Assembly: GCA_030141605.1 (NCBI GenBank)
Contig: JAQGDQ010000168.1
Location: forward strand, 124,001 to 188,000
DNA from: Tubiluchus corallicola
Taxonomy: Eukaryota > Animalia > Priapulida
DNA length: 64,000 nucleotides
Direction: 5' to 3'
Position numbers and translations under genes: made by a program. A model generated the notes under the pieces. That model did no database searches, was not told the DNA's origin, and saw only the letters and a list, made by a program, of their open reading frames with translations. Positions 5,191 through 62,000 of the stretch are shown piece after piece. The first letter of the stretch is position 1. Every line of letters starts with the position of its first letter.

Positions 5191-21109
<15,919 letters not shown>

Positions 21110-34100: not shown

Positions 34101-34759
34101 AGCACTCACAAATTCCAATAATTGTAGAAGCAGGTAAAATTATTTAATGCAACGTAAAAATAACTACTGTGCTACTAAATGGCTTGTACTCACTTGTTTG
34201 GCCCAATTTGGCTATGAATTCGAACTCGCGTTTCGTACGTGTGAGGTATATTCAAGAAGAAGGAAGAAAGAGTGGCACAGACGGCGGCTATTCTCATAAA
34301 TTTTTTCGTATGAACAAAACCAAATTTTAGCGAATGGCAAACGGCTAAGTACCGATCTATAGTCAGCAAGGTGACGACGATATTACTAGCACATGACATA
34401 GATTTTGTTAAGAAAAAGCTCAAATGCGTGTAATACCACATTGACGAATAGGTGCGAGTCAGAAACCGCCCACGAATCAGAATGTAACCTACGTAAAACG
34501 CTATTACGAAGAAATCTAGACACGCCAACCACCTGATGTACTCGTAAGATGGCTTTCGCAGCCGCTTTGTCGCAAAAAGCACACGAATGTTGAAAGAGTT
34601 TCCAACGAACCCAAGCAGCAGTACGATGGGAAAGCCTATTTTATACACTGCCAGAGTAATTAGGGCTTTCTGCTCTTTTGTGAATATGTGTGGCGTAGAT
34701 TCGTCGGAAGAAATGTTATAAGAATAATCACAATCCGCTGTAATAGAACAGTTTGCCAT
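31117..34759 (-). CDS. Rhodopsin-class 7TM GPCR (FMRFamide/peptide-receptor-like), ~388 aa
   Basis: Exon 1 34759-34194 and exon 2 31717-31117 join in frame (PNK|FLYGW). Motifs GFVGN (TM1), LACLD (TM2), TIDRYLAVCH, CNVP (TM6), NYAANFYAY (TM7), SRDFR (helix 8). N-terminal N-glycosylation sequons. Confidence 0.92.
32040..32140. repeat. Imperfect (CAT)n/(CTT)n low-complexity tract
   Basis: Directly visible in the GPCR intron. Confidence 0.8.
32853..32952. repeat. Two-copy ~52 bp tandem duplication
   Basis: TTTACC.CTGTTATACTTA.CTGGTTACAAGAAATAAG occurs twice in succession. Confidence 0.85.
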
Positions 34760-36179
34760 ACTGCTGGTTTAGTTTGGCTGCATGAAATGCTAAGTGCTCA
34801 TGGTATTTTCCTTTCAAGTATGTGTCCAAGTGTCATGGCATTAACAGAGCACATTGTAGTATAAAGCTACTTTGATTATGTTCTGCTCTAAAGAGAATTT
34901 CAAAAGGTATGTAAAATCCTCAGTTTCGAATGTTCCCATGTATTATTTAATGATTGCAACTTTGAAAATCTTATTAAGGCAAACTGGAAAACATAATTAA
35001 GTTCTAAACAACTAGAACAACTGGTGAGCAAAAGCCCGTTGTAGTAATGCGTGTAATAATAAAAATGTAGTACTTTTGTCTCTGCGTGTCTATAATGTTA
35101 CGATTTTTATGTTTTTGCCACGCCGCGGTTAAACTTTTGGACACTTTGCAAAAGTTTTTGCATGAAAGTTAAAAATCAAGCATCTGAAAAATAATTAAGT
35201 CTTTCCTAAAAGGACGTTTTAACAGTTTAGTTGCAAGTGATATTAAAACGCATTTAGAAATTTTCAAAGATTTTATAAAATAACGCTAGAAATCGCTTTA
35301 AAAACATCAAAAGTGATTTCCACAAGTCATAACGAATTTCACAATAGAGAAATCTCAAACCGTTTTTAAATGGCTTTTATGACTTATTAAAGTATTAGTA
35401 TCAATTTTTAACGCGATTCTTTTTGCAAACAATTGAACTTTGCTAGATTCTCGTATTGCACATATCCACTACTCTGTAGGCAAGACGTTCTTACTCTTTG
35501 TGCCTTTTAACGCACCTATCTCTAGCAATTTACGCAGGTGACACCTGATATTAGTTTATTCACTTAGCCAAACATATAGGCATTCCTATAATGAATCCTG
35601 CCTAATTTCTATTGATTAATGTACAACATTTTACGCATATGTAATGCGCAGTATGTACACTTGCAAGAGTTGTTCAATAACGCTTTTTTGTGGCTGGCAT
35701 TATTAGTATATCGCAACCTGTTTGTATAGTTATGACGAGTGTCAATAGACTGTATTATTTGTCTTGCATGAATCGCAATTATGTTGTTTTCGACTGCAAC
35801 TGTTTACCGATACTAGTAGCTATGGAAGTGAATACCATTACTCACTGATAATAATAAATGCTTGTTCACAAAGACTTAAAACAGCGATGAAAAACAAGGT
35901 CTAAATAACAATTTTGAAAAAAAATGAGTTATGGATTTTATGGGCATCTACCATGTCTATACTGTTGGAAAAGTAGCAAGTTTTGTTTTTGGAAAAGCAA
36001 AAAAGGCACCACTTACACTTAAAAATCTATAATAATGTTTAACACACAAACAAGGTGGTGCATTGACTGTTCAAGTTAAGCTTTCTTAAAACAGCACTTA
36101 CATAGAATGCTGTTATTCTCAGTTTACGAAGCATTTTCACGATTGTGCATATCTTATCCATGCTGCAAGTTGTTGGAAC

Positions 36180-38408: not shown

Positions 38409-39540
38409 CTTACAAACATGCAACCAGTTTATATATGCAGAGCCTACAATTTTTTTAGTGCATAAAACATTACGCACTAATTGTGTTTAGCAGAAGCCAA
38501 ATAGGTAATGAATAAGCAGACCAGTAGAAAAGAAATTGATATAGTAAATTATACACTATGTACATACAAAAAGCCAAATAGGTAATAGGCTTACCACTAG
38601 AACACGTTTGCTGGTCTGATGCTGATTTTGAATCTTTCACTTGCAAACAGTTCAAAATTAATGTAATCTTATTCAAACTCTACTAAACAGAGAATTTTGT
38701 ATTTCATCAACCTATCACAAATTTCATGAAGAAGTCAATACTATAAAAAAAATTTAATTTCTAACGTGAATAATTGATTTACCATCAAAAATATCTTGAT
38801 AAAGTCTTTTCCAAAAAAAATCGTCATACAGTCGGTTTCCAAAAAATAGTGTATCTACGCGTACAGTTTATTGGGTCTCAGTCTTTGCAAATTCAACTAC
38901 GCATTGTGTTCAAATCTGGCAATAATTTAGGCTCTTTCTTTCCATTTAAAGACAAAATACCCACATTACTATAGTTTGATATTATTTATAGATTTCAGTG
39001 CAGCAGCTGCAATGCTGTTTACCATGGCAAAACATCCGGACACTTTAAAATAAGAATATGTGAACTTTCGGGCATTTCGTCTAGAACTGGCAAGAAATTA
39101 AAAAAAATTCTCCTCATTTCAGCATTAATGACCATGTTTGTGCCTCTGGCCACAAAGCCGATTTTAATGATTTCAGCATTGTGACCAGAGCTACAAATAA
39201 CTGGGGCTTATTAATAAAAGGAAGTTATCTATCTATCCATCCCAATAAGCCTTCTCCTAATGCGCAAAGTAGTTCAATTCCGTTAACTTTATTTTCACAC
39301 ACTTAGCTATCAGTTTCTGTATCCACTGCTTTTCCACATGTCTGCGTATGCATTACTTATTTGACTTCCTTCTTACATGTAATTAGTACGTAATTTTCTC
39401 TACCGTAGGCTCTGCCTATATATAAACTGATTGTTTGTTTGCATGTTGTACCACTAATGGTGACAGCAGACTGCTGTCGGAACGTCTGGACATGTTTGTA
39501 AACAGCATTAAAATAAAGTTTTTTTTAAATGAAAGCTGTT
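38341..39540 (+). mobile_element. Penelope-like element remnant: GIY-YIG endonuclease 3' part with inverted terminal repeats carrying hammerhead motifs
   Basis: FPFKDKIP..IIYRFQCSSCNAVYHGKTSGHFKIRICE, INDHV, DFSIV, SIPLTLF. 38359-38447 is the inverted homologue of about 39405-39494. Confidence 0.8.
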
Positions 39541-40201: not shown

Positions 40202-43200
40202 ATGGAAACTGCCGCAGAACATGTGATTGTGGGTGTGGATGTGGGTGGCACTAATACGGACGCCGTAATTTTGTTAGATGACCGTGTTTTAGGATCTGCT
40301 AAAAGAGTAACTACGCAGGATGTAACGGGCGGAGTTTTAGCCTCAATCTCTGCTGCCTTGCGAAAAGTCGCAGAAAAAGGTTAGTTCTGAAAACCAGTTC
40401 AATATCACTATTGTGATAATGTGAAAAATTGCAGTTTTGTGCCAAACTATGCAAAGTTTTGCCTGATTTGCAGATTTTTCTGTCTTGGCGATGTTTTTGT
40501 GTTTCTGTGTTATGGCATGACATGCGAATGAATTCGTGACTTCTAGGAATGACTTTTATAGGGCACAAAGTGAATGTCTTGCAAGTCCACATCGGTACGA
40601 CACATTTTATTAATGCAGTTCTACAGCGAAAACGTCTTGCAAAGGTGTCAGTAATACGACTGTGTGGACAGGCTTCGACCGCATTACCTCCCTTTTGTGA
40701 TATACCTTCCGACCTTAGAAAGGTAAAAAGCATTAGCGATAACATAAAATGAATAGGTGAATTAAAAAGTACCCCTCTTGAGATTAGCTAGTAGAATTTT
40801 TTTATGTGTATACATGTCCAACTTTTCAAATCTGTTTTCCTTTTGCTTGTTTCACGGTTAAAACTAAATTGTATGAGATATTGCATTTAGGTGGAACCGC
40901 AAGTTATTTAGCAGCTAAATACTTGTAAAAGAATCTTGTACTTTTCCTACTACCTCAAAGAAATGTTTTAGTTATTGCTAGTAAATATTATAATGACGAT
41001 TTCATTATTAAAATAAATACTAAAATCAAGGTATGTTTGAGCCTTGAAAGTTCAGATGTTGTTCTCGCGTGCTGAGAAAAAAGGGATTACGTACATCTCT
41101 TTTTGCCACCTAAATCATTCTTTCTTGAATTACACAGTTAAATTCAAATTTATAGCAAAGCTCGGTAGTTTATTATGTCTGCATACCTTCCTGACAGATG
41201 TCAAAATGTTTGTTCTTTGCTCTTTGATACAATGTGCAGACATAATACAATTTTGCATTGCCTTTTCTCTTTAGTCACAAGTACTTAGAAAAACTACATT
41301 TTTGTACTACATCATACAAATCTAAAAGGCACTCACAGTATACACCTACCCAGTAAAATAGCTGAAAACATAAAAATACTGATTTCTTTAATTCATTGTC
41401 TGGTAGGACAACTAAAGAGATCTATCATTTTTTGAATTTCAGCATGTATTTGGATCATACCACTTTCTACACGGTGGTTGCCAATTTGATGGCAACGAAA
41501 TGGAGCCACTGGATATGGAAGAAGTTAGAAAAGTCTTGAAAGAAATTCATGAGAAAAACGTCAGAAATGTAGTAGTTACAGGAATTTTTTCATCGGTGAA
41601 TGCTGGTCAGGAGATTCAGGTGATTTATTTGATACATTCTCTTCCTGATCCATCTCTCTGTTAATATTTATTGTCTGACAAAAATTGTAAAGGTATTGTA
41701 GTCATCTAGCTTTTGTCGTCACAGTTCTGAATGGTTTGCTCTGAAATTACAATGTAAATTGGGGAAATAATTAATGACTTTCAGTCTTGATGAAAATCAG
41801 GTTACGTGTCTTTTCATGATTAAGTCAACAACAGTGCTGTCATACTATAAGGTTGTTGGAATCTTTGATGCTGTTGATTTTTGTAACCAGTATGCCAATT
41901 CCGCATTATTTGTACAACTTCGATCTGTAAATATGGGGTGCTGTTGCTGATGCTCAAACAATTTGTCATTTATGTACAGGGTGTAACATAACTCCTTGCC
42001 GATGAGGTACAAGAACAGAATAATTTTTTAAGTCAATGTATTGCTCAGTCATTTACGAGTCTACCATATTCTCAAATCCTCAGTATTGAGTGTGGAAGCC
42101 TTGTGCATCTCACAGAGCCTGCAATCTTGAAGCTTGTGACTGGAGCAGAACGAACTGGATGGTTTTGAAATTCACTGGACCTCAAACCTGCTGAACATAC
42201 GGGTGTTAAAGCACACTCAAATATTAGATTAACATAAAAGACATGCTTATTCTGTTATGGTGCAAGTTAAAAGTGCCTGGCTTGCTATATGGTCAGTCCA
42301 AGCACATCGTAGTCAAATTTAATCAATTAACAATGGGAGTTATCCTGGTAAATGCTGTGAAATCTAAGATGATCCAAGAACATATGAATGATCAATATTT
42401 ACAAGCTAAGCTCAGGTGGCTTTCTGCAACATGTGTTGGATGGTTTTTAGTTTGATTCTGATCTCTTCGAGCCGCCGATCATATTCCTCATAATTGCAGG
42501 CTGCAAGGTTCCCACACTAAATATTGAGGGCATGATAGATTCTCATTGATTGAGCAGTACTTCAGTGCAATAAAATGTTCTGTACTATTAGTCATAGCTT
42601 TGTGTGCCCCCTACCCATCTAAAAAAGGTTATGCTGTATTCTGCAGTATGTTTTTCTTATGTTATACCCAGTAGTACATTCTTCAATTATAATTTAACAA
42701 CTATGAGTTTCCTTGCTTACCTTTTCTGCTTTTAATCCTGATGTAATGTACCTATATACTACCAAAGTGCAAACTGCAACTTGTAATCTTTCCAATTACA
42801 GTCATTTTGATTTATATTGATTTATTTGTTTTATGCATGTGTAATTTTAGGTGAGTGAAATATTAAAAAAAGAATATCCAGGTACAAGCATAACATTATC
42901 GCATCACATTGGACAGCTAGGACTTCTGGAGCGAGAAAATGCTGCAATACTGAATGAGTGTTTAAGGCCATTGTGTAAGAAGACACTAACAGCATTTCAC
43001 CAAGCATTGAGAAAACTACACCTGCACTGTCCAATTTACCTGACTCAAAATGATGGAACACTTATCAGGTCCAGTGCAATTTTCAATTTGCTTTTAATCA
43101 GATAAAATATTCAAATTAATTGCTAAGAAATTATATCTTGGCACTTCAACACTGATTAGCCATTTGTAAGAAGGGTAAATATGAACCAATCAGTTTAAAC

Positions 43201-46200
43201 GTGCAGATAATGCCCCATGTTCATGTGTTTATACGTCTCCGTTTGAAACTCAAATCATACAATACGCATATTGTTGCCTGCCATCTAGAGTCAGGAAATG
43301 ACATAAAAATGCTCGTATTTGAAAAGCTCGTATTGCCATTTCTATGGAAATATTTCAATAGCAAAAAACGCCGTCCACCTCTGGAATTCACAGCCAGTCG
43401 AAGTCAAACGTATTAAATCATTAACTGAATTCAAAACCAAAACAAAAACATTAATGATGTCAAAATTTGAATTCGTAACTTACTAATATGACAACTTACA
43501 CAGTAATGCAGAATTCATTTGCCCCAGGCCATATTTAAACGGCTTAATTTTACGGATAGCTAGTTTGAAAACATGGTAAATATGTAAAGTTTAAATTTAA
43601 AGTTTTATTTTTTTGCTCCTCTAGTTGAGATTTTTAACTTTCTGATTGAGTATCTTAATATTTCGTTATGATTCCCAATATAATTGTGGCAAATAAAGGT
43701 GTTACTATACTATGCTACTAGATTCGTAATTATTTGTCTATTTATTGTGGCAGAGCTGAGAAACCGCAAGTCAGTAATTATGATAATTTATTGCTTGTAG
43801 ATAATAAAGATGTTACTATACTTTTTATACTATATATTTACATCTTTTTTGAAGTAGTTACAGAGAAATTGGTTCAATGAAAAAGTGTTTATAGATTATT
43901 TATTACCATTTTGTTAATTCATTAACAGCGAAAGCTTTGACATGCAATTTTTTCTTGTTGATACAGTTTATTTCTTATTTATAGCTGTCAGTGTAAATTT
44001 GCTATATTTTTCATCTATCTAATCAAATATTATTTTGTTAATTAAGATGGTGATGATGCTAACTACAACTAATGTACATTGCTTATGAGCTGTATTTTGA
44101 CATCAGAATTCATATAATGTAGAAATATTTAGAAAGTGGATATATTATGGCATCACAATACACGAGGAATTGCATAAAAATAACAGTTTAAGTGGAAAAG
44201 TGGAATACATTACTTTATCTCATTTTATCTCATACATTTTTTTCTCATTTTATGTAGCTCAGAGAAAGCCTTACAGTTTCCTGTGCACACATTCGCTTCT
44301 GGTGCAACAAACAGTATGAGGGGAGCAGCATTCCTTTCGGGATTAAAGGAAGCCATTGTCTGCGACATTGGTGGCACCAGTACTGATGTCGGTGCTCTTG
44401 TTTGTGGCTTCCCTCGTGAAGCTTCAGCACATATTGAGGCAATTTGTTTGATATATATTTACTTTGACAAGTATTTTTGAAGGTGCATGAAAAATTTGTA
44501 GTTTAGGGTTTGAGTTGAGGGTTTATGATTACACTTACCAATTAATTACAAAATAGCAGGTTATTGTGGTGTATTGCAGTTGATAGTTTCAAAATATTAT
44601 TTCAGGTTGGAGAAGTTCGTACTAATTTCCGGATGCCAGACGTGACAAGTATTGGCCTTGGAGGTGGTTCCATTGTATCAGAGTCAAATGTAAGTTTCTT
44701 TAATGAACAGTGATAGGTCTAAAGAACAACAAATGCAGTAACCATGCTTTGATTACAGCACTGGTATTAGCGAAATGAATTAGCTCTTCCTAATGACTAA
44801 ATAATATCAGTAGCATCACACTGTAAGTTTGTCCTAATCAGTGACAGTGTGCCACTGCCACAATTAATTTGACCTAACTTCATCTATAGTAAGTCTTTTC
44901 TAGACATTGCCTAATTGCATTGCCAATTAGTTTATGAACCTCTATTTTTATTAAAATAAAGGGATATTTAAAATGCTTTAGCCTACACAAATGCACCAGC
45001 AATCCACCAAAAAGGTCACATTGTGCTCAAAGTGGGAAATTCGCGTCTTTTTAAGAAGTACAAATTGACATCTTTTCTCATTAATAACAGGGTCAGCTCT
45101 GTAAACTAGTACAAAGAACAGAGAAAGTAACATATCCTTGTCATCTTATCTATTCAAGCCATTCTTTGCATTAACATCTACAAACTTCATTTTATAGAAG
45201 AAGATTCATGTTGGACCCCTGAGTGTTGGATACAAACTTTCCACGGAGGGACAAGTTTTTGGTGGAAAGACACTTACTGCAACTGATATTGCTGTTGCGG
45301 CTGGAACGTGTGTGATTGGTGACGAAAGTAATGTAATAGCAACAAAAGACATTATCACATCGGCTGTAGATACCATTCATGAAAAGTTAGAGCATGTCAT
45401 AGATCTAATGAAGGTATTTTAATTAAAATGCAGTTTTTATGGCTAAGTATCCCATGTGATATATGATGTGTGAGTTAATTATTGGTTATTAATTAAAAAG
45501 CAAATAAGAAATTTTGAACTTGACGAACCTACGATAGAAGGAAATAATTTACATGGTGCTAAAAATTCCGTGTTTCATAAGCAAAGATTTGTTATCGAGA
45601 GTCCTGAACTCACTGCTGTGGCCAATCAATTTTTCCCCACTATTCAATTCAAAATTGAGTTATCACACATCACAGTCCAACAAAATTTATTTGCTTTATC
45701 CTTTATTTGATGTGTAATGTTGCTCCATCAACATATTAGTTTTTCCAATCAGTTTTAATGCTTGATGGATGTTTAGTAGTAGAGTAATTTGTTTCAAACC
45801 GTGTTCTAAATTGCAACTATGCTTATTTTTTATTCAAACAGGTTAGTGCTGAAGAGGTGCCTGTTGTCCTTGTTGGAGGCGGTAGCATTCTTGTAGATCG
45901 AGGCAGAAGAATTAAAGGTGTTTCTAGATTTGTCCAGCCTAATCATTTTCATGTGAGTTGTAGCTAATATCGTGTTTGTAACTGTGTATGACATTAGTCT
46001 AAAACTAGAAGTCGGCACCAGTTATACTTAAAGAAATTTCATTTTGATGTATCATGGTAGCTTTCTATCTGACAGTGGTACAAATCCTAAGCAATAAAAG
46101 CATAAAAATGTCATACAATTAAATGAGACATTATTATTGTTAGCTGCTAGAAATCAAAATTAAAAGTCTGAGGTTTTTGTCTGAACAGAGCTTCTTCAAC

Positions 46201-49200
46201 GATATTTTTCTGAAGCAATAGGCAATGTGGAATGATTGCAGGTTGTATGCATTTTGTTACTTTCATTATGATGATGGTCTCAACTTCAATATTTTTCATT
46301 ATTTGTGATTTTTAAAATTATGAGATCTTTAAATGCTGTTGACCTGGTAAGCTGTTTATTTTACATCAAGCTAACGTATCTTGACTGTTTAAATGCTCAT
46401 GGTTGTTTCAAAGTAGATTTTGTTGACAAGCATTCTTGCTATTGCTCACTTTCAGGTCGCTAATGCAGTCGGTGCAGCATTAAGTCAAGTGAGTGGTTCA
46501 GTTGACACTGTAGCCAATTTGACAATAGTGACGAGGGATGAAGCTATTAAACAGGGCAAACAACAGGCCATAGAAGCTGCTGTCAAGGCTGGGGCTAAAA
46601 GAGACACTATAGAGGTGATCAATCAAACGTTATCTAAGTATTAATTTCTTGCAGACCTTGACTATACATGATGATTTTTTATATAGATTATTTTAAACAA
46701 TTTCTAACTCTAGTTAGAAAAGAAAATGTGAAATCTGGTCCAGAAAATTCTTATAGCTAATTTACTAGCAATAAGAAATATCTGTTTAAAGCAAGTGAAT
46801 GTTGTTGCTAACATGGCAATAATTTGCTGATAAAGAATTACACAGATAAAGAGGCCCGAAAAAATAGCAGCTGTTCTGGTGATATGGGTTTTCTTGCTAA
46901 TGAAACATGCATTTAATACATTGCAGATTGTTGAGATCACTGATATACCTCTTACGTATCTTCCTGGAAATGCTACAAGAATTAAAGCAAAAGCTGTGGG
47001 TCAATTAGATCACTTTCGACTGCATCACGAAGGTTTGCTTGCCTTTCTTTAATTAATTGTGCATTGAAATAACTTTAAGTTTTATTTCACGTGTATTTCC
47101 GTGGACAATGATTTTGTAATTTTGTAATCTTTCTCACAGCATGTTCATTGTTAGCCCATTTTGCAGGTCTGCTGAGATTAAAAACAGTTTTCAAATTAAA
47201 TTTCAGTAGTGTCTCCTGGTCTGATGGAAGATGGTGATGCCACTGGAGATGTAGAAGAAGATGAGAAATTCAGCACCACTTTATCTTCAGTTGCTAAACA
47301 CACAGTGAGCGGTTTAGCATTTGAAAGTGTTAGTGCAGGTATAAATGTTCTAATATTACTTTCTTGAAACCAACTGGTACTAGCTAGACTGTACACTTTG
47401 AAAATTGTTAGAAGAAATTACCAGTTTCTTCGGGCCTGTTAACTAACAGCTCTTGATTTTATTATTTAAACTAGCTTCATCCTTTGTCAGTGCTTTGAAA
47501 AAATATCATCTTTTTACGATATTTTGCAACTTGTTACAATTCACACAGAACACAGTATAACAATTAAATGATTTACCACGACGATGACAGTTTCAATAGC
47601 CAAAGTTAGTTAGTCAATATTGCTATTTTTCACTTACATTCAATGAGCACCATGAACTTTGTAATGCAATTGCTAGTACTGTATTACAAGCTGCAGTCTT
47701 CTGAATATATAATTAAACATTAACCATAAGTTGGACTCAAAAATTAAGATCTGTATTCTGAGGATACACAAGTGTGAACTAAAGTTTAAACAGCTGTGGA
47801 ACACTTAATTTGGTTAAAACCTTTAAACAAATTCCGTGTGCGTACAACGAAACTGTGAAAAGGCTTACTAGTGTATTTAAGAATATGTTTAATTTCTGCT
47901 TTTAGAAGCTTCTGATGCTGCTGCTGTTTGTGCTGATGTAAAACCCAATGTGGCAGATGGCGTGTGGTACCTTACCGAACAGGATATAGAATGCCTGGCA
48001 GTCGGTGCAGGTATATTAGGTGTCGGTGGTGGTGGACATCCGTATGTGGGAAAGATGCGAGCTCTGCAACAACTTCGGAAGGGAAACCATGTGCGCATTA
48101 TCAAGCCAGAAAGGTTTGTCCAATTGTTATTTGTTTATATGTACAAGGTTGGTAATTTTGAAGTGCAAATAAGTGAATTTTGTGTTTTCATTAACTTTAC
48201 TGTTCCATTCAGGAGAATCTTGGCTATCCAATTATGCTATTTGTTAAGCATTTATAAGCGATTTAATTGGATAAAATTAAGAAAAATTAAGAAAAACTAA
48301 GCAACAATACTCTAACTTAGCCTATTGAGTAGCTTAATCTGGTGTACACTTGTGCGTTCGTACACTCTATTCTGTTTTATTGATAGCCTGCTTGCTACAG
48401 CTCAAGCTGTGCAGAGTTCTGTTGCTATACCAGGAAAAACCAACCGATCAGCCAAGCAGAAATTAAGGTTGTTTCATCATTTAAGAGAAATTTCTCCTTA
48501 AAAATAGAGTGGACTTGAAGCCAAAATGTATCAGAGTGTTGTGTCTGGATCATTGAAGTTTTCTACATTAGCCGATTGTATGCAAGTGATACTGTACAAT
48601 GTTACAGTGCAAACACTGCAGTTATTGAAATTATTTTCAATATTTTTGTCAATAATCAATTTTTAATTTGTCTGTTGTAAGCAAATGCATTTCACATATA
48701 ATTTTGCATGAAAATCCATTGTGCAAGGAGTAGAACCTACAAAATTTTTTAAATATAACGTAATTGCTGCTTAGTGAGAGAATCTATGCTGAATGCAGCA
48801 AATGCTTACAGCCTGAAGGAGTACTGTGTGTGCCCTGAAACTTGTAACCACTTGCTAATGCTTATTGGTAATACTTGTCATATTAAGTTGTTATTCTGTA
48901 TGCTTAGACACAGAAGTTAAACAACATCAAGGCCTGGTCAGTGAGTGGATGAGTGACTGCTTGTCTTATTACTTGTTTTTTGTGGTTTCACCCAAAGTAT
49001 TTACCTTTTGCGGGAATATATGTACATATTTGAATGTAGCTAAGATACCCTCTCTATATATTATTGCAAATGCACCATTCTTCAGGAAACTGCAGCCTAA
49101 TGCATCACTTAGGTACATTGAAAGGTATGAAAAATGCGTTGCAAATATACCGTGACATAAAAGATGCAGTATATGTATAATTTTATATATATATATAATA

Positions 49201-49209
49201 TATATATAT

Positions 49210-49244
<35 letters not shown>

Positions 49245-52200
49245 CAGTGTAATAATCGCATTAAAACAATATGCGAAAAAAAATTTATTTAAAAAATTTG
49301 TAAAATATATAACTGTAGATAGTTTTTATAGGTATTGTCACTTATGCTCAGAATTTTGCTGAATTTTGTTATTCTTTGTCACTGAAAAGATTGAAAGGGT
49401 GCAGAATATCACATCATAAGAATGAAAGAATGCAGAATGAAGGGATTACGCTGGGAGCAAAAACAAACAGAAAAATCCTGTATTACCTAGGACAGAGTCG
49501 TTCATTTCAGATCCTTTGAAGTATGATCTTCGACACAAAATGAAAGGGTCGCTAATTTTCTTTCGTAGTTGTTGCCATAGCCATTTCACCTTTGGTTTGT
49601 AGTGCATGAATGTCATTTTTTATTTCACAGTGTCTCCCTTTCTGAGTTAGTGGCTGGTGTAATGATGATGGGGGCACCACTAGTGTTCATTGAAAAGCTG
49701 TTTAACAATTTTGAAACCAGTTCTGCATTCGATGCCGTCCGTCAATGCATGTGCTTAGGTGACATTGCCACAGTGGCCAGTCGCATCGAAAGTAAGTTTG
49801 CATAACTGTTATTTTTCTTTAGAATTGCCACTGATGGGTTGATTGCTTGCGTAGCGATGATGGGGGCACCACTTGTACTGGTAGAGAAGCTGATAAGTAA
49901 TAGAGAATCGGGAGCAGCATTTGAATCAGTCAGGCAACTGCTTTGTAGTGGCATGTACAGGGATGGAGACATTGACAAAAGTAAGTGGCTTGCTGTTACT
50001 TTTGTGCTCCAACCAAGTCATCAGACATTTGCAGAAAGAAGTAGCTTCTGTGCTTAATGAGAATGGACCATTATATTTTTCAGCCAATACCAAAATTCCA
50101 GGATTGAAGTGCCTAGAAGCATTTTAGGTATGAGGCAGCTTCCCACAAAGATTAGATTCTGCTTTTACTACTGATTTTTTTTATAAAGCTTTAGAATTTT
50201 GATAACATTTAGAAGGGAAAACTGGTTTGATTTCCAGTTTCTTATTTAGCAGCATTTCAATGATCACTTGCAGCATGTTCTGTGGCATCTATATAAAAAA
50301 CTAACTGCATGCTTGCTTTAAATTTTATGCTGTCAGATGGTAATGCATTTTGCATATTGCTTTGCAAGGCTTTCTGTTATTTGTGCTACATTCCTGTGCT
50401 CATTACTTTCTGGCCAACTGCAAAGAAAAAGTTTTTGATAAAAATGCTTGCTTGCAAATTTAACATTATTACAAACATAAATAGCAAATACAGTATAATT
50501 GAGTGCATGAAATATCTGAATTACATCACTAACTAGCCAACAGTAAACAGATGCACAACAAGTGTCAGATGTCTCATAAGTAATAAAGTGTTGTCAACAT
50601 GTCACAGCAGTGTGAAAGACCTTAACTTTGCTTGAATGATGATAGGAGCTAGTGCTCATTGAAAAGCTGCTAAACAATTTTGAAACCAGTTCTGCATTTG
50701 AAACTGTCCGGCAGTACATGTGCTTAGGTGGCATTTCAGCAGTTTTTGATCATCTGCACAGTAAGTGTACCGTCCCAGCTCCTTGGCATGCTGCAACAAG
50801 CGTAAATAGTTTGTTTGTTTGTTTGTTTATCAACAAGTGTAAAGTATGTAGAAGCTTCTCAATCTTGTTAAATCTTTGAAAGTAAGTGATGTGCTATCTA
50901 AACTCACTTGTAAAAGAGAAAAAACATTCACATTACTTCAAACACATTTTTAAAATGACTTTGATGATATTTTTCATTTTTTGAAAACCTGAAATTTTTA
51001 GTTGCTTGCATGTTATTTTTTTCTTTAATTATGCTGCTTGCTGGGTTGTGTTGTATTTAAGAGCAGCACAAACTTCGAATCAAACTATATTTTGTTATTT
51101 TGTTATATTTCTTAAATAATTTGTTATAATTGTGCTTGTTCACTCTAGTAATCAATTTTCTCTAGAGTCTGGACTGAATGTAGAGGAGGGACCTGGAACA
51201 AAATTCATCAACAATTTCCCTGCTGATTTCTACAAAGGTAAACAAAAGAGTCCAGAACCATTTGCTGCCATCATGTCGTGTGAAATTGGAGGTGTGAATT
51301 CGATGGAACCTCTCGCAATTGGTGGTGAACTTGATCTTCCTGTCCTAGATGGAGACGGGCTTGGACGGGCATGGCCAGAACTTCAGGTACATGAGTTTAT
51401 GTGGCTTTTATATGAAAACCGCACAGAAAACCCCACTAAACTATAAACTTATAACAAAAGCGGCGTTTACCCTTGACCAGCTGGCTCTTCCGGCAGCTAA
51501 GATCACTGCTGAGCTGTTGCATTATGTATCAAGGGTGACCATCAGTTACTATAGACAGTAACGCAGAATATTTTTGCAGTACTAATGTTTTCAGCATTAC
51601 ATTTGGCATTGGAAAACTTAGTCATTTCTAACGAATGATTTGTTTGAGTCCAGTTAAAAATATCTGGTCTTTAGGCACCACATCTGCATTTGAAAACTAT
51701 GGTCTCTTATTATTATGTGTATTAACGTTCACTGCTACCAGTTTTTTGCTCATATTCAAAAAAAATTTTTACTTGCGTTTTCCTACTGCAGACTAAACAA
51801 AACGCACAAGTAAAAGCATCCATGGTGCTTTAATGTGTTTTGGCACATTTGCAGCACTTTAAGCAACACCGAGCAAAATTGTTAGCACGAACCTACCCTA
51901 ATGTATATTCCAGTTGTTTAAGCTAACCAGTTTGACACCTGCCTGACCAGTTTAACACAGGGCAAGTCTATACTGTAGTCACTTGCCATGGTCACTGATA
52001 ACCTTTTTCATGTAAAAGCCATATTACAATAATACCTTTTTTAGAGATTGTCCTTGCTTGAGGATAGTCTTCTTTACTGATGTAGCAAACATCTATCACT
52101 TTGAGGTAAAACTTTATCTTTATTCTGTGTGAGATTACCTATGTAACAGTACATTAGAGAGAGTATGAAGCATAGGTGCACATAATGCGAGGGCTGATGC

Positions 52201-55200
52201 TTTGCTTAATAAGTTACTTTTCTGAGTCTTCAAAATTCAGAATTCGTAAAGTTTTCACATTTTTTAAAACGCTTCCAAAAAGGCTAGACATTTTTTGCAC
52301 AATTCTTCTTTTTGTTCCCTTGTTCCCTTGATATTTTAGTCATGCCAGTTTCTGTCATTTGTGTCAGATGTGGATGCCAAACATCTACACAGATATTTAT
52401 GCTACTGGACCATCATGCACTGCAGACGAAACCACAAAGAGAATGTTGCTGCTGCATGCAGACACTGCTTTGGACTTGGAGAAACATTTCAGGGAGATAT
52501 GTGTTAAAAAACAAGGGTATGTTTTAATGTGCATTTTAGTACTGTCTAGTTATTTAAATCCGTTGGTTAGCTGTCAGCTGCTCATTTTATTTCCGCATTA
52601 GTTGTTGTAATTTAGTGGGAAGTGAGCTATCGGAGCACCTAGATGGATTTTTAAGGAGGGTGCTGCTAGGATAGTGATAGACTCTGTGAGCATGTCTGTA
52701 TGCTTCAGACGGATGCATCTTTTTGGAGATGCTGTACCGCACTTGCATCGTCTTTGAGTATCGATGGCCTTATCAATAGATAGACACAACAGCCAGGTGG
52801 TCAGCAGTAAAATGCAGAGATTTTCGAAAGGTCAGGGCTTCAATTAAAGAAAGGGCACTCCCTTAAAACTGCAGTGTCCTGTAAGTTATATTTACTATCC
52901 ACATGCAGAAAATTAAAGTAATGTAGTAATTGTTCTTAAATCCTGTAGTGTTGGTGCCTTGTGTTGCAGTTGTTGGGCAGAAGACCTGGTTTTAAATTTC
53001 AAACTCTACAATTTCCACATTATTTAATATATAGACTTGTGAATTTTGCAAGGTTTTTGTCATGTATTATACTTTCAGTCTACAAGATATTATGTTTGCT
53101 AACTACACTCATATCTCGGTTTGCTGGACAAAAGCGTGGAGACGTCAGTTCAAATTTCCTGATTGTCTGTATTTACCGATACTAAGTTAATACAGTAGTG
53201 GCTATGTATTAGACTCGCGCTAATGTAGAATCAATTGCCTAATTGTCTCAAAAACTTCCAGTATGGGTCGCTCCTGACATACAAGCTGCACATGTGTCAT
53301 TACACACTGTTTGATGGCACTGATGTAATGATGTAAACAAAGTGACAGCCCTCCAACTAGCAGTCAGCTTGTGAAACAAAGGACAGTGTCTGTAATCTGC
53401 TGGACTTTTAACGATCTAGATTTTGTCCAGTTTTTCCAATATCCATATATGATTGTACATTTCAATGTAAGGTTAAAATTGGTTATACTTGGGAGCTGGT
53501 TGTATTACCTGGGGACCATTTGCCTACAAACACAAAGTTGCTTTTTACAGACCAAAAGATTTAATTCGGGCACAAACAGCTTACCAACTATGGCAAAATA
53601 CTTTCAGTTACAAAAACTTTAATATATTTTAGAACGAACAAAATTGATCTATCATTAAGAGATGTCATACCATTTTTAATTATTGCATTTTATGAATTTT
53701 GTCTTTCAAAAGAACCAAAGGGCTATGCTTTTATATTGGCTTTGCTTTTATAGTTCGGGTTAGAAATGCTCCCTGTACTCACCTATGTATAAAAAAGATT
53801 GCTGGTATGTTAGATCTTAAGTAATAGAAAGAAGGCACAATTAAATTTCTTTGGAGGCTTTTGCCTTTTATGTGCCTTTGCATAAAATTCTTATCTGCTT
53901 TTATTTGCTTATGAGCTTTCAGAGTGTAGCATTCTCTCTTAGTATTTTTGTGAAAGTCCCGAAGAGGCTTTGCCCCTAGGAAGCCTTATACCCCATCCTA
54001 CCATAAAACTGTTTTCTGCACCAGTACAGAGTTAAATAAAACCTTTGTATTAAAGCAGTAGCTCTGGACATCATAATAAATAAATATATATATATATATA
54101 TATTCTATGTGAAAAAGGTACTGTACAATATTAGTAAGGAAATAATAGTAAGCCTGAGTTACCATACAATAACAATCTTCAGAAGCGATTGTGTACTTAT
54201 ACTTAAGATGGCAGTTTTAACTAATGTACATATTGCAGCAACGGTGAAAATACCACAGTGAATGATACTGTAAGCAAGGCACAAGAAATTGGATTGGGAA
54301 AAGGATATCAAATGGAAAAATAGGAAAAACGAATGGCTCCTATATCTTTTTATCACTGTGATATATTTACCTGTATTATTTTTACTTACATTTGTAATAA
54401 GCAAAAATAAGCCAGTGGGTTCTTATCATTTGAACTTCTTTGAATAGCGATTCAATATTAATAGAATAAATTGTCGAAACAAATTTGCTCAAGCCATCGC
54501 CCCTGCGCATGCATATGCCTGGTGATAAGGTTGTAAATATGTTCTTGAGTATTGCAAATTATTAGTAGCTTCATCATAATAAAATTATGTAGTATATCTG
54601 AATTGTCATTAAGGATTAATTTGAGAAAAAGTTATATAGTCTTTACTGTGTTTAAGGTGATTTGAAGCTGTTGATCTATATGATTAGTATATATCAATTT
54701 TACTTTGTTTTGAAATGGTAGTTTGTGAGATGTGGTTGTATTTTACAACTGTATAAATCAGTTTGCAATGAGGAACTGAGTTTTCTTTGCAACATATTAC
54801 TCTGGTTTGTCCAGGTAAATGTTCTAAGAGTACTTTGAATTGCTAGGAACAAAATCTGGGCTGTGCAGGAATAAGAGAGCATTCCAAAACCAAAAGTGTA
54901 GTTATTCTTTTGCCTAAAGCAGTAAAGTGGAATGAATAATCAAGAATGATACGTACGACCATATACATTCAAGTTTATTTAACTGTGTGAGAAAAATGCA
55001 TAGTGCCATGTATATATGTATGCCATGTTAGGGAGTACAACTTTTGAGCTCTTATTATGTTTTGCCCTGTTGACTTGTGTTTGCACAACTAAACACATAA
55101 ACAAATAAATTAATTTAATTTAAATTCATCTGTTTGTCTTACAGTTGCATGTCAGGTGTGATGATGCCCCCTATTACTGGCGAACAAGCAAACAAGTATT

Positions 55201-57582
55201 GCATAAAATATTCAATGAGTCGGATCTGGAGGCTGGGTAGAGCTGTTTTTCAAGCGAGAGCCGAAAAAAGAGACCCTGTGGAAGCCATCATGAAACTGGA
55301 AAATGCTATTGTCCTAATAATCGGAAAGGTTCATGTTTAGCCTCTTCATACCAAGTGGATATACTTTGCCACATTATTACTTTATTTGCATTTATTTTTT
55401 ATTACAGTTACTGTATACCATATTTACTCGTTTTACCGCCCTTGCTTAATTACGAATCCACCCAAATAAGCGCCCCAGAAAACAGGATAAAAAATAATAA
55501 ATGCATGTGTTTAAATAGCCGCCTGGTGCAGACTGGTGTATTAAAAATTTGCATCAATATCAGCTCGGTACAGAATTTTGCTGTAACTTCTGCAATTGGC
55601 ATGTTATGCACGTTTGTTTATTAAGCGCCCTAATATGCCTGTCTGTTTTTGTAAAGAGAAAACACATGTTTAACAAACATCATAATGCACACTATCTAAG
55701 CGATGAGTAGTCATTAACAGGTGAAACATACAAACTGCTGAAAGATCTCTAGCAGCTAGCTTCAGCTTGATGCAAAGCACTGTGGATAAGTGACAGACAC
55801 AGCAACAGATTACATTTTGCATGTATGGGAATATGCTGTGCTGCTACATAACTGGGGTATGTAAGGAGTAAAGGGGTTAACAAGTAATAAGCACCGACGC
55901 TTGAATATGTCGTTGTTTGAATAACAGCCCAGTAATTTGTTTGGTCTAAAAAATAATTTCTCGAGCTCTAAAATGTGTAAATATGACAGAATGTTTAATT
56001 TTCACTCATGTTCAGAATATTTTTCAAACTCGTTTTAAGCTCATTTTAGTGCATTTTAGCTAATTTAGTGTCTTTTCCTTTATCACCTGTTTCAGTTTTT
56101 GTTTTAGATTGTCAGTTTTAGTGGAAAATTTGTAGTACACCAATATTGCAATAATATTGTGGTATTCACATTTTGCAAGAAGCATGTTTCACACCTTTAG
56201 CAAGAATTTCATTCCATCTTTGCTTTTAAGCAAAAAGACTTATTCTTTTGTGGAATTACTTGAAAAAGAATATATGATATTAGACGAGATGGCACTGCAT
56301 GGTTGAATATATGCAGTTGATTTTAAGTAGCACGTAATCTATCAAGCAATATTTTAATTATTAAAGGACCTTATTAGGCAAACTGTGAACTTATGATTAC
56401 TAGGTATTGATTTTAATTGATATCATCATATTCATCGTCACTGAATGCCTGATATGGCTGTTTTACTAGGAATTAATAATGTAAAAAGGAATCTATCTTT
56501 CAGACAGGCAATTATGAATTATGAATTACAAGTTTATTATAAACCTCATACACCTCTTTCTGGGCATCATAATTACTGATAGTACATATACAACAGCGGT
56601 GGCGAGCAGCATTACAAACATGCAGAGTTAATATTCTCTATTTAAAATAGCACTTGTAGCAAGCAAGCACTTGTATTAACACAGTAAAGTACTTAGGATT
56701 ACTAAGCCACCAGTTTGGCAGCACCACTTCAGTTATAGAGGTACAAAGCTGTTAATTGTTGTGGTAACAGCACTTTGTCTTGTTTTTCCAGATCACTGAT
56801 GTAAAGAGAATGATAACTGGTGGTTTCAGCCGAGGATATGTTGTCTTGGAGGGATTGATGGAGCACAGCGGAAAATGCCTGCAGATTGACTTTCAGAATG
56901 AGTTTCTCATTGCCAAGATGAAGCAGCGTGATGGAAGCTTGAAGGTGTGGATGGTGGATTTTATTGAATTCAGAGATCATTTTATTTGTTTTCTTTAATA
57001 TGGTTAATACAGAGTCTGAGAATAATGAATTGTTGACTGTAACAATGAGATGATGACGAGGATGACGAAGACGGTGACGAAGACGATGATGATGATAGTA
57101 ATTTTGCTTTTCTTGCTGTTTCATTCATAAGGATAAGATTGATAATTGGTTTTCTTGCCTGTAATTAGTAATAGCAATTCTTATAGTGATGATAATATAA
57201 GAAGCAAAATGCATGTGGAACAAAGATTGTCTCATTTCTATGAATTAGCTAATGCAAAAATATCACTTTCGTGTTGCAATAGATTGATTGAATCCATGTT
57301 TAAAGTCAGTGAAATTTTTTGTTGTGCTTGTAGCCTGTGGTTTGTTGTCCGGACCTAATAATGATGCTTGATACCGACAGTGGTGAACCGGTCACGACGG
57401 ATGACCTTCGATATGGACTACGGGTCACTGTGCTTGCCTCTTCCTCCCATCCACTCACCAGAACACCCGAAGCTTTTGCTGTCGTGGGAGTTAATGGTTT
57501 TGGTTATGAGAATGTAGAGTATGTTCCAGTTCCTCGAGATTACGCTGAATATGATTCTGTCATTGATGAGTTTGGACACTGA
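40202..57582 (+). CDS. Hydantoinase/oxoprolinase (Hydantoinase_A) - DUF917 fusion protein, ~1019-1020 aa
   Basis: Exons 40202-40379, 40547-40722, 41443-41619, 42851-43068, 44258-44438, 44606-44689, 45198-45413, 45842-45952, 46456-46614, 46927-47032, 47207-47338, 47906-48113, [49631-49791 or 49823-49980], 51166-51386, 52368-52516, 55145-55328, 56792-56944, 57334-57582 sum to 3060 or 3063 nt in frame. Motifs GVDVGGTNTDAV, HIGTTHFINA, ERENAAILN, DIGGTSTDVG, GLGGGS, VANAVGAA. DUF917 motifs GAGILGVGGGG, MGAP..EKL, EIGGVN, DGDGLGRAWPELQ, FQNE, PDLI, LRYG. Confidence 0.92.
41975..42620. mobile_element. MITE-like element with long imperfect inverted arms
   Basis: About 42038-42106 (GTATTGCTCAGTCA..CCTCAGTATTGAGTGTGGAAGCCTTG) is the inverse of about 42504-42560 (CAAGGTTCCCACACTAAATATTGAGG..TGATTGAGCAGTAC). 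Starts TA-CAGGGTG. Confidence 0.6.
43200..43470 (+). mobile_element. LINE extreme 3' fragment
   Basis: LWNSQPVEVKRIKSLTEFK, matching the LWNSLP..FK C-terminus of CR1/L2-like ORF2. Confidence 0.5.
48912..48960 (+). pseudogene. 5S rRNA-derived fragment (SINE-like)
   Basis: GAAGTTAAACAACATCAAGGCCTGGTCAGTGAGTGGATGAGTGACTGC resembles the 5S internal A-box to C-box region GAAGTTAAGCA...GCCTGGTTAGTACTTGGATGGGTGACCGC. Confidence 0.45.
49183..49243. repeat. (TA)n(TAGA)n microsatellite
   Basis: Directly visible. Confidence 0.95.
49631..49791 (+). CDS. Alternative exon 13A of the hydantoinase-DUF917 gene
   Basis: ttcacag acceptor, gtaagt donor, open frame SVSLSELVAGVMMMGAPLVFIEKLFNNFETSSAFDAVRQCMCLG, phase 2 in and phase 1 out, 161 nt. 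Confidence 0.75.
49823..49980 (+). CDS. Alternative exon 13B of the hydantoinase-DUF917 gene
   Basis: tttctttag acceptor, gtaagt donor, open frame RIATDGLIACVAMMGAPLVLVEKLISNRESGAAFESVRQLLCSG, phase 2 in and phase 1 out, 158 nt. Confidence 0.85.
50611..50760 (+). pseudogene. Decayed third copy (13C) of the alternative exon
   Basis: High similarity to 13A (CATTGAAAAGCTG..AACAATTTTGAAACCAGTTCTGCATT..ATGTGCTTAGGTG). Retains the gtaagt donor but has an in-frame TGA and a deletion removing the AP codons. Confidence 0.8.
55415..55990. mobile_element. Degenerate Tc1/pogo-type MITE remnant
   Basis: TACCATATTTACTCG head, repeated TAAGCGCCC motifs, and a weakly inverted tail GTGTAAATATGACA. Confidence 0.35.
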
Positions 57583-57814
57583 ATCAGGTGGTGCAGTTTT
57601 ATGACAGTGATTGTGGATTTAACTTGACAGTACTTGGTCCACTCTGCGATCTTATTGTATGTATTATGAGAATGTAGAGTATGTTTCGGTTCCTAGAGAT
57701 TACACTGAATATGATTCTGTCATTGATGAGTTTGGACACTGAATCAGGTGGTGCAGTTTTATGACAGTGATTGTGGATTTAACTTGACAGTACTTGGTCC
57801 ACTCTGGGATCTTA
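57504..57814 (+). repeat. Tandem duplication (period 160 bp) spanning the last 25 codons, stop and proximal 3' UTR of the hydantoinase-DUF917 gene
   Basis: 57504-57654 is repeated at 57664-57814 with only a few substitutions. Confidence 0.95.
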
Positions 57815-59550: not shown

Positions 59551-60336
59551 GTTCCAACTTTTCTGGGTTTCCCGTTTTTCAGAGTTTGATTTCAACGTTT
59601 AATTAATTGTGGAGTTCTCACCCACTATTAGCAATAATTTTGATGCTAGACTTTAATATAATTAGTGCCGTAGTACACTGATGCGTTATTATTTTGACTT
59701 CGCTTCAAAGTTGTGATTTGACGTACACCAGTAAACTTGAAGCTTGCCCCTTTTCTCCAAATAAACAATATCGTATTTAGGCATTTGCATTTTTTTTAGT
59801 TAATAGTAATGGTCAGTTAATTACTATCGAACATGACTGGGAGTTTTTTCAATCTTTGACTGGAAGACTTTGAGACGAATCATCTTAAGGGAAGACCGAT
59901 ATTATAAATCACTCTTAGATAAATTACTAAAAACTAATGTGTAATTTCCTCTAGTAAATTATCCCAAGGTGACAAGGGATGTAGAAGAGGTGTGGATTTC
60001 TCTTTTGAACCTTTATTTTGTGGTGTGTACGCTGTTAGTTTTTATGTCGCAGGTATTGATTTCATCACTCGGGTAACATTAGACTGGTTATTTTCTTGTT
60101 GCTTGGTATCCACTGGAGAATCAATACTAAATTGAGTGTCTCCACCTTGTCCCGTACCTCATAAATACTAGTTTACATAATAGGAAGCTGACTACATGTA
60201 TTGCATTTTGCAGTACATCGTGAACTGGTTCTTGAACTGTAGCTTCTTATAAGTTATGCATTGTGTGAAAAAAATGACAATAAAGTTTGCAATGCTCTGG
60301 TCTGCGAAAAGTCTTTGAGTTGCAGTTTGCTCAACA

Positions 60337-60787
60337 ATGAACCAGACAAAATACAAAAAGGACGCGTCTAAATTTGACGAAAGACCTCTGGCACAAGGCC
60401 GATACAATCAAGTAAAACCAAAAATTAAACCGCAGAAACCAGCGTCGAGTAAACGCGAGAACAGATGGGTGCGTTCTAAGAAGTATGCCACCGTCCAGCA
60501 GAAGAATGCCAAGACAGGCAAAAAAGGTCTCGGAGGAACTATTAAACCCGCAATTGAGCAGCCGGACTTTACGAATTCCAAGACCCAGCATGATCTGATG
60601 TTGATCGGCAGTGACGGGAAGAAATTGTACGCCCACAAAGCTGTGCTGTCGCTGTGGTCGGAGCATTTCCGGGATTTGTTTGCCATTGACGACATGAAGC
60701 AGCTGAAACTAGAGGATGCCAAGGGAGCTCATCTGATTGAGATGTTGAATGTGATCTATCCACCTGATTTGGAATCAGACGTAAATG
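60337..60787 (+). CDS. BTB/POZ-domain protein, first coding exon (downstream exons not found in window)
   Basis: HDLMLIGSDGKKLYAHKAVLSLWSEHFRDLF...LIEMLNVIYPP is a typical BTB fold, preceded by a basic N-terminal extension. Probable donor G|gtgcgt after 60787. Confidence 0.85.
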
Positions 60788-62000
60788 GTGCGTTTTTTAC
60801 CAGCTGTTGTATGCTTTAATTCGTCACTAAGGTCACGCCGCGTTCATTTAGGTAGCATTTGTCATCCCAAACCCGCAATAATATTGGACGACTCTTAGGA
60901 GTTGTTTCTAGACCGCAACAGTTATTCTGAGTGGATTAGCATTTTTGCTTTGAGTAGATTTTTGTTGCTTTTTTGTTTGATATTATTTTTTGCTATATGA
61001 ATTTCATTAATTTTTTGCTTGATGTATGCCTTGTTATGCTTTGAATTGCATTTCTGCTTTTGAGTTGATTTTTGTTGTTTTTGCCTTTTATATATACACA
61101 AACACCTAAAAATGTCATGAGCCTGTGAGTAAACTTGTATTTTTAATAAGGGGCAGCTGACCAAGTGACCAATAGGTCTTTCGCTGCTCCTTCTGAGCTG
61201 CAATGAAATGTAAAAATAATTATGACGAATTTTAACTGCTACTGAGAAAATAAAATTGAATTGAAGTGATTGAATTGAACAGTGAGTGTCCCAGGTCAAT
61301 TTAACGGAAGTCAGTCGAGGAGGATTTTATCAGCACTGTTCTATTTTTTCTACTTCTTATTTGTCTATCCATCTAGCTTTGATAATGATAGTGCTTTTTG
61401 ATGTCCTATTTGCATGATACTTTGTGACTGTTTAAAGGTCAGTTGCTAAACATGCTACGATAACATTGGAATTGGCTGATGTTAATATTACCGAACCTAT
61501 CGGTCACACTAGACGTCTGCTTTAGATGATATAAGAGTTGGTAGAAACAAATGTCAATAAAAAGGAAAGGTCAAAATTATTTACTTTTGCACTGACAAGC
61601 GCCAATAGAAAGTCAGTCGTAAAGGTCAAGCTCATTTTGCTTTCAAGAGGGTAAAGACAAGCATCAAAGCCTCTATTGATGACTGTCGATTTAACATATC
61701 TAGAGTTGCAAAGATGATATTAGCCAGAATAATATAACCTAGACTATCTAGTGCTGCAAAGATCGCCCATCTTTCAACACTGACCTGCACTAGAAATTAT
61801 GTACTTGTAAGTTTTGCGCTAAGCTGAAGGGACATATAATAAGCTTTCCAATAACCCAATAATGATAGGCTACTAATGCATCTGAAATAAAATAATACAC
61901 TTAGAAGAGCAAAGCACCAACTCAGTGACAGAACTAATTGCACAGCTACTGTCAACAATTGCATATTTGGGCCTGTTCTTCACTGACTGGTGAAGCTTCA

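What the first reader, a model, noticed from the sequence alone, without database searches (positions are those of the whole stretch)
49631..50766. Mutually exclusive exon cluster that swaps a conserved segment of the DUF917 domain
Seen: three tandem paralogous exons. 13A (49631-49791, 161 nt) and 13B (49823-49980, 158 nt) both have open frames, canonical AG/GTAAGT sites and identical phases (2 in, 1 out) that fit the flanking exons. Only 31 nt separate them (49792-49822). Including both or skipping both shifts the frame. Both encode MMGAPLV..EKL but diverge around it (FNNFETSSAFDAVRQCMCLG versus ISNRESGAAFESVRQLLCSG). Established: sub-minimal spacing plus frame incompatibility is a classic way to enforce mutually exclusive splicing. 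Inference: one gene yields two enzyme isoforms that differ next to a conserved, probably active-site-proximal motif, which may tune substrate range. I do not know of MXEs described for this gene family, but novelty cannot be confirmed without a search.
Basis: partly seen in the sequence, partly recalled or inferred. Interest (0 to 1): 0.85.

Follow-up and report, generated by a model that had tools for sequence, protein, structure and literature searches.

The report
Swappable exon in an uncharacterised enzyme
An invertebrate gene for an enzyme of untested function carries two intact, old copies of one exon only 31 bases apart, plus a broken third copy, and likely splices in one copy at a time to give two protein versions that differ around a conserved motif, a familiar splicing arrangement not yet seen in RNA for this gene.

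Summary
The gene has 18 exons (40202-57582, + strand) and encodes a hydantoinase-A ATPase fused to DUF917 (Pfam S-Me-THD). Exon 13A (161 nt) or 13B (158 nt) alone gives a full protein of 1015 or 1014 aa; both, neither, or retention of the 31-nt spacer gives an early stop. 13B is the ancestral-like copy (closer in 9 of 10 animal-type homologues). 13A is derived but shows purifying selection (dN/dS 0.29 against B, 0.28 against the third copy) and keeps all near-invariant residues. 13C is a later copy of A with a 5-nt deletion in the GAP motif. Mutual exclusion by steric clash plus frameshift is likely (0.7), but no RNA run covers the gene, so use of 13A is unproven. New: an inverted relic of the exon in the intron after 13B (50208-50312) is complementary to A and C; its pairing with A is not stronger than controls. 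The scan noted the fusion protein in four other genomes, never this exon cluster. Verdict: new member of a known kind.

The parts
40202..57582 (+). 18-exon gene: hydantoinase-A/oxoprolinase ATPase (PF05378, PF01968) fused to DUF917 (PF06032, PF20906)
   Evidence: Uninterrupted spliced frame, 16 GT-AG introns and 1 GC-AG; Pfam on exons 1, 5, 12, 13, 14, 17, 18; 47% identity over 1020 aa to an Acanthaster protein
47906..48113 (+). Exon 12, upstream constitutive exon (GGGG motif), phase 2 out
49603..49630 (+). Acceptor region of 13A, starting with TGCATG; similar to the acceptor region of 13B (19-nt repeat family D4, 79%)
49631..49791 (+). Exon 13A, derived copy, intact
49792..49822 (+). 31-nt spacer: donor of A, branch-point-like CATAAC (49801-49806), in-frame TAA (49803-49805), pyrimidine tract and AG of B
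49823..49980 (+). Exon 13B, ancestral-like copy, intact
50208..50312 (-). Element X: inverted, decayed relic of an acceptor plus exon-13 core inside the intron after 13B; 50242-50271 complementary to 13C (87%) and 13A (81%)
   Evidence: role untested
50635..50766 (+). 13C, pseudoexon copy of 13A (5-nt deletion in the GAP motif, donor GTAAGT 50761-50766)
51166..51386 (+). Exon 14, downstream constitutive exon (EIGGxN and DGDGxGRA motifs), phase 1 in

Best explanation
Exon 13 of this hydantoinase-DUF917 fusion gene is present as two intact tandem copies and one broken copy, and the two intact copies are likely spliced one at a time, which would give a 1014-residue ancestral-type and a 1015-residue derived enzyme. 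Shown in the sequence: either copy alone keeps the frame; both, neither or the retained spacer stop early; the branch-point-like site of 13B lies about 13 nt from the donor of 13A. Inferred: U1 on the A donor and U2 on the B branch point cannot sit together, so A is not joined to B, and stray both/neither/retained products carry early stops and would be removed by nonsense-mediated decay. Inferred history: an old duplication gave B and an A-type copy that evolved fast and was then held by selection; a later duplication gave A and C; C died. Inferred effect: the swap exchanges one strand, a short helix, a long helix and a linker of the DUF917 domain, keeps G-A-P and E-K-L and changes their neighbours (Ala to Met three residues before GAP, loss of the animal Y-x-D-G stretch), so it would modulate rather than remove function. 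13B is the likely major form. What selects the exon is open; RBFOX-type TGCATG words and the inverted element X are candidates.
For: Frame logic. Spacer 31 nt, whereas the shortest of 24 other introns read in this window (17 in this gene, 7 in the ammonium transporter gene) is 167 nt. Branch-like CATAAC at 49801-49806; <50 nt donor-to-branch distance is the published steric criterion (PMC5740500, passage). Splice-site scores of A and B (acceptors 4.6 and 6.5, donors 5.6) fall inside the range of the 16 constitutive sites. A vs B over 43 codons: pS 0.64, pN 0.32, dS 1.42, dN/dS 0.29, Fisher p 0.0025; A vs C over 32 codons: dN/dS 0.28, p 0.025, so the A line was constrained after its split from C. 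In neutral simulations a copy keeps frame, splice dinucleotides, GAP and E in 0 of 4000 runs at 0.7 changes per site and in 1.7-4.5% at 0.2. G 41, A 39, P 41 and E 41 of 42 homologues are kept in both exons. A, B and C group together against 14 homologues (90/87, not starred), A with C 99/99. Segment boundaries fall in loops of an AlphaFold model of the Acanthaster homologue (pLDDT 85.5). DNA contigs of run X1 reproduce 49553-49776 and 49783-49976 with 0 and 1 differences.
Against: No junction read for either exon (no RNA holder). Selection signals are historical and rest on 27-43 codons; A could have fallen silent lately, as C did. A fits the family worse than B (24.9 against 39.7 bits on a 10-sequence animal-type profile; fewer identities in 9 of 10 of them) and its stem in the tree is long (1.36 changes per column), which also fits relaxed constraint. 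A vs C over all 37 alignable codons gives a weaker dN/dS of 0.42. No A-like protein was found in a search limited to 29-93 residues and none of the named homologues examined shows a second form of this segment. The organism's true minimum intron length is not known; 24 introns are a small sample.
Confidence: 0.7

Rival explanations
1. 13B is constitutive today. 13A was once used but is now a silent or barely used duplicate that has not yet decayed, one step behind 13C.
For: B fits the family better; C shows that copies here do die; a TGCATG word 28 nt before the A acceptor and a predicted A:X helix could keep A repressed; no RNA support for A.
Against: A keeps frame, both splice sites and all near-invariant residues; neutral decay of even 0.2 changes per site would spare all of these in under 5% of simulations; its sites score like constitutive ones.
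Confidence: 0.2
2. 13A acts mainly as a regulatory, unproductive unit: use of the A acceptor with the B donor (spacer retained) or A+B joining makes a stop-containing message and turns the gene down through nonsense-mediated decay.
For: A, spacer and B together form a 350-nt unit with valid outer splice sites and one in-frame TAA; the spacer can fold back on the A donor.
Against: This role needs no protein-level constraint on A, yet dN/dS is about 0.3. The spacer hairpin is not more stable than shuffles (z -1.1, 24 of 200 as good).
Confidence: 0.07
3. The cluster is an assembly artefact, such as two haplotypes or paralogous genes merged in tandem.
For: No contig of run X1 bridges A and B with 31 or more letters on both sides, and 49977-50442 is uncovered. 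X1 may be the source of the assembly, so it is not independent.
Against: A and B differ at 64% of synonymous sites, far beyond alleles; flanking exons occur once in the window; one X1 contig runs from the last 9 nt of A through the spacer and most of B.
Confidence: 0.03

Closest known systems
[quoted passage not shown]
   Same: Homologous exons of near-equal length and equal phase, very short spacer, joint inclusion shifts the frame, segment embedded in a folded domain.
   Different: No junction evidence here; the host gene is an uncharacterised metabolic enzyme in an invertebrate; a third, dead copy lies downstream.
Docking-site/selector and bidirectional RNA pairing in Dscam, 14-3-3zeta, Mhc, MRP1 and srp (PMC6071210, parts 1 and 3 of 5 read)
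   Same: One intronic element (X) is complementary to two duplicated sequences (13A upstream, 13C downstream), as expected when one arm of a stem is duplicated with an exon.
   Different: Here the partners lie inside exon sequence, X looks like an inverted copy of the exon itself, it does not match exon 13B (p 0.89), and conservation or covariation could not be tested. In human U2AF1 similar inverted repeats had no effect when mutated (PMC5224494, passages).
Hydantoinase-A/oxoprolinase ATPase fused to DUF917 (Pfam PF05378, PF01968, PF06032, PF20906); homologues named from Acanthaster, Haliotis, Saccoglossus, Branchiostoma, Holothuria, Mytilus, Mercenaria, Owenia, Ancoracysta, Gefionella; structures 9h03, 6yra for the ATPase part and 2o3i for DUF917
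   Same: Same domain order and motifs, 38-47% identity over the full length to the six best full-length hits.
   Different: The homologues examined carry one copy of the exon-13 segment; Haliotis has two neighbouring whole-gene paralogues instead.

Membership tests
Tandem-duplicated mutually exclusive exons | Homologous exons of similar length, same phases, encoding the same part of the protein | tested here: met
   161 and 158 nt, phase 2/1, same Pfam positions, 22 of 43 residues identical
Tandem-duplicated mutually exclusive exons | Each exon alone gives a full open frame with valid splice sites | tested here: met
   1015 and 1014 aa; site scores inside the constitutive range. Not met for 13C.
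Tandem-duplicated mutually exclusive exons | Junction reads from each exon to the flanks, bridging the other, and no productive joining of the two | not testable with these tools
   No RNA holder; the two runs laid show no splice joints
Steric-interference subclass | Donor of the first exon under 50 nt from the branch point of the second | tested here: met
   Whole spacer is 31 nt; branch-like A at 49805, 13 nt from 49792. The branch point is predicted, not mapped.
Tandem-duplicated mutually exclusive exons | Both exons under purifying selection or conserved in relatives | tested here: inconclusive
   Within-genome dN/dS 0.2-0.4 supports past selection; no related genome holding the cluster was found
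Docking-site/selector RNA pairing | One site complementary to a selector at each live exon | tested here: not met
   The core of X matches 13A and dead 13C but not exon 13B (p 0.007, 0.003, 0.89); the match of its second half to the B acceptor is not significant (p 0.12)
Docking-site/selector RNA pairing | Pairing conserved with compensatory changes across species | not testable with these tools
   No orthologous intron available
Hydantoinase-A/DUF917 fusion proteins | Hydant_A_N, Hydantoinase_A, S-Me-THD_N and S-Me-THD_C in one chain | tested here: met
   All four families hit exons of the one spliced frame

The most novel reading that the evidence does not exclude
The exon switch is steered by relics of the exon itself: the inverted intronic copy X pairs with the core of 13A and silences it, while the dead exon 13C is kept as an RNA decoy that captures X (it pairs better, -33 against -24 kcal/mol) and frees 13A, so a pseudoexon and an antisense relic together set the ratio of two forms of an uncharacterised ATP-driven enzyme.
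Probability: 0.1. Interest if true: 0.65.

Novelty: new member of a known kind. Interest (0 to 1): 0.36.

Why it matters
If both exons are used, this is a natural two-way swap inside DUF917, a domain for which a full-text search found six papers, the four listed all on bacteria, and whose eukaryotic fusion form has no tested function in anything found here. The two isoforms share the ATPase and all near-invariant residues and differ in about 30 residues of one segment, so assaying them side by side would point to the residues that set substrate or partner choice. The locus also holds four stages of one exon's history (ancestral, derived, dead, inverted relic), a compact case for how mutually exclusive exons and competing RNA structures arise. 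The splicing mechanism itself is textbook.

Tried and rejected
No whole genome is held for this window, so paralogues elsewhere were not checked. No RNA holder listed. Run X1 behaves as low-depth DNA contigs and X2 gave only short partial matches, one at about 87% in exon 1; neither shows a GT-AG joint. X1 leaves element X uncovered. Protein searches with exon 14 (longer proteins) and exon 13A (29-93 residues) found nothing. Three live exons: rejected; the only frame-keeping acceptors for 13C are 50537 (very weak score, stops inside) and 50690 (71 nt, lacks GAP and EK). Readthrough A-spacer-B as one long exon: rejected, TAA in frame. X as a strong silencer: weakened; the best exon-intron duplexes of the 17 constitutive exons span -21.9 to -31.6 kcal/mol, against -23.8 for A:X and -33.2 for C:X; mismatches are not biased to G-U (1 of 5 with A, 0 of 4 with C, read by hand). 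Spacer hairpin: not significant. The fold search of the domain found only 2o3i (Z 41.6; next 5.2), so no liganded relative locates the active site. A recalled link of DUF917 to a desulfurase step of ergothioneine breakdown was not confirmed in five paper searches or in passages of PMC13405746. Searches for this cluster in print: DUF917 + hydantoinase (5 papers, 3 listed, bacterial), oxoprolinase + mutually exclusive exons (1 unrelated review), DUF917; listings only; subscription papers and supplements were not seen. The Atlas look-up added only S-Me-THD clusters.

Full report
Observation. I built the whole gene by hand from the window: 18 exons from ATG 40202 to TGA 57582, 16 GT-AG introns and one GC-AG intron. 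With 13A the frame runs 1015 codons, with 13B 1014; with both it stops at codon 704, with neither at 664, with the 31-nt spacer retained at 702. Pfam places 13A and 13B at the same positions of PF06032 (DUF917, now S-Me-THD_N), between exons 12 and 14; other exons hit Hydant_A_N, Hydantoinase_A and S-Me-THD_C. The best full-length relatives are uncharacterised proteins of sea star, abalone, acorn worm, sea cucumber and two protists at 38-47% identity, so the organism is an animal without a close named relative in these databases; a second gene of the window gave the same picture. Notes of this scan call the genome a likely priapulid; I did not test that.

The third copy. 13C (about 50635-50760) is 82% identical to 13A over 114 nt. 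It has lost 5 nt inside the GAP codons, has stops in frame just before, and its donor scores 0.9 on a matrix from the gene's own 16 constitutive donors, below all of them. No acceptor restores the motif in frame. An X1 contig matches 50621-50799 without a difference. It is a pseudoexon.

Which copy is old, and is 13A alive? Of 42 homologous segments aligned, I took the 10 that carry the animal-type insertion (9 named animals, 1 unnamed). 13B has more identities than 13A in 9 of these 10 and scores 39.7 against 24.9 bits on their profile; only 13B keeps the Y-x-D-G stretch seen in 6 of the 10. In a tree of 17 segments the three copies group together (90/87, short of the starred level), A with C at 99/99, B on a zero-length branch and A/C on a stem of 1.36. 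So B is ancestral-like and the duplications are probably confined to this lineage. A is nevertheless constrained: against B, 64% of synonymous and 32% of non-synonymous sites differ (dS 1.42, dN/dS 0.29, p 0.0025); against C, dN/dS is 0.28 over 32 codons (p 0.025) and 0.42 over 37 (p 0.039). If A had been dead since its birth, A versus C would sit near 1. Simulated neutral decay keeps frame, splice dinucleotides, GAP and E in 0 of 4000 runs at 0.7 changes per site and in 1.7-4.5% at 0.2. These are small samples and speak of the past; they do not prove present use.

How exclusion would work. The spacer is 31 nt; the shortest of 24 other introns that I read in the window is 167 nt. It holds the A donor, a branch-like CATAAC with its A 13 nt from the donor and 17 nt from the end, and the B pyrimidine tract. 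A donor-to-branch distance under 50 nt is the published steric criterion, and frameshift on joint inclusion is the common second safeguard (PMC5740500, passages). Both apply. From recall, some animals have introns near 30-40 nt, so the steric step is an inference for this organism. TGCATG (recalled as the RBFOX motif) occurs 5 times in 2592 intronic nt of the cluster against 6 in 11442 nt of the 15 other introns (p 0.037, one-sided, noticed after the fact): one 28 nt before 13A, three after 13B, a layout that would favour B where such a factor is present.

What is swapped. In an AlphaFold model of the Acanthaster homologue (pLDDT 85.5) the segment is a strand ending in GAP, a short helix with the invariant E, a long helix and a linker, with both ends in loops. 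G, A, P and E are present in 41, 39, 41 and 41 of 42 homologues and in both exons; 13A has Met where 25 of 42 have Ala and none Met, three residues before GAP. The only solved relative of the domain is 2o3i, a structural-genomics entry, so nearness to an active site is inferred from conservation alone. The N-terminal half folds like ATP-dependent N-methylhydantoinase and caprolactamase; an ATP-driven attack on a small cyclic amide is the most likely chemistry, untested.

The two best non-microsatellite inverted repeats of the cluster share one arm, 50242-50271 in the intron after 13B, which is complementary to 13C (87%, 30 nt) and to 13A (81%, 27 nt). Read on the minus strand, 50208-50312 looks like an acceptor followed by a shortened exon core, an inverted relic of the exon. 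The match beats 1000 shuffles (p 0.007 for A, 0.003 for C, 0.89 for B) and all 34 flank controls of the 17 constitutive exons (best 28 against 36 and 44). Folding of 49560-50800 puts about 18 pairs in the A:X helix, with or without 13C. Against a role: the A:X duplex is no stronger than chance exon-intron duplexes elsewhere in the gene, mismatches are not biased to G-U, and X does not match 13B. One stem arm duplicated with an exon is a published route to competing structures (PMC6071210, parts 1 and 3 of 5), but similar repeats in U2AF1 proved inert (PMC5224494, passages). I give function 0.1.

RNA and relatives. No RNA run holds the stretch; X1 is DNA-like and supports the sequence of A, the spacer, B and C in separate contigs; X2 adds nothing here. 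No related locus with the cluster was found.

Comparison and verdict. It works like a steric-plus-frameshift pair of tandem mutually exclusive exons and meets the sequence-level features of that class; the defining junction test could not be run. It does not meet the docking-site pattern. Three paper searches (listings only) and the scan's own notes show no report of such exons in this family; the notes do list the fusion protein in four other genomes and several other duplicated-exon clusters in this genome, which I treat as leads only. New member of a known kind; confidence 0.7 that both exons are used; interest 0.36.

Noticed in passing
window 44439-44444: Intron 5 of the gene starts with a GC donor (GCAATT); the frame and homology require it.
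   Followed up: partly
window 57505-57810: The end of the last exon, with its stop codon and part of the 3' UTR, is duplicated in tandem (about 160 nt unit; second copy at about 57665-57810).
   Followed up: partly
window 49891: One X1 contig (depth 4) reads A for T inside the EKL codons of 13B; may be an error or an allele.
   Followed up: no
window 50607-50620: An X1 contig that matches 13C has 14 further letters that do not lie on the window here, a possible allele difference upstream of 13C.
   Followed up: no
window 9200-21100 (+): Ammonium transporter gene, at least 8 exons, introns 176-4413 nt; its first exons were not located.
   Followed up: partly
window 24554-26900 (-): Flavin-containing monooxygenase with one intron and a 409-codon second exon; one unnamed relative at 86%, named hits at 29-38%.
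   Followed up: partly
window 31120-34768 (-): Two-part rhodopsin-family GPCR (7tm_1, Srw hits).
   Followed up: no
window 28722-29812; 1745-2074: THAP and HTH_psq transposase remnants; a reverse transcriptase fragment.
   Followed up: no
window 60319-60816 (+): First coding exon of a BTB/POZ protein.
   Followed up: no
window 48230-48700; 53100-53370; 39050-39440: High-copy repeats inside introns 12 and 15 and upstream of the gene (X1 depth in the hundreds to thousands).
   Followed up: no
window 51003-51021: A third member of the 19-nt family found at the A and B acceptors lies in the intron before exon 14, with a TGCATG at 51007 and no exon after it.
   Followed up: no
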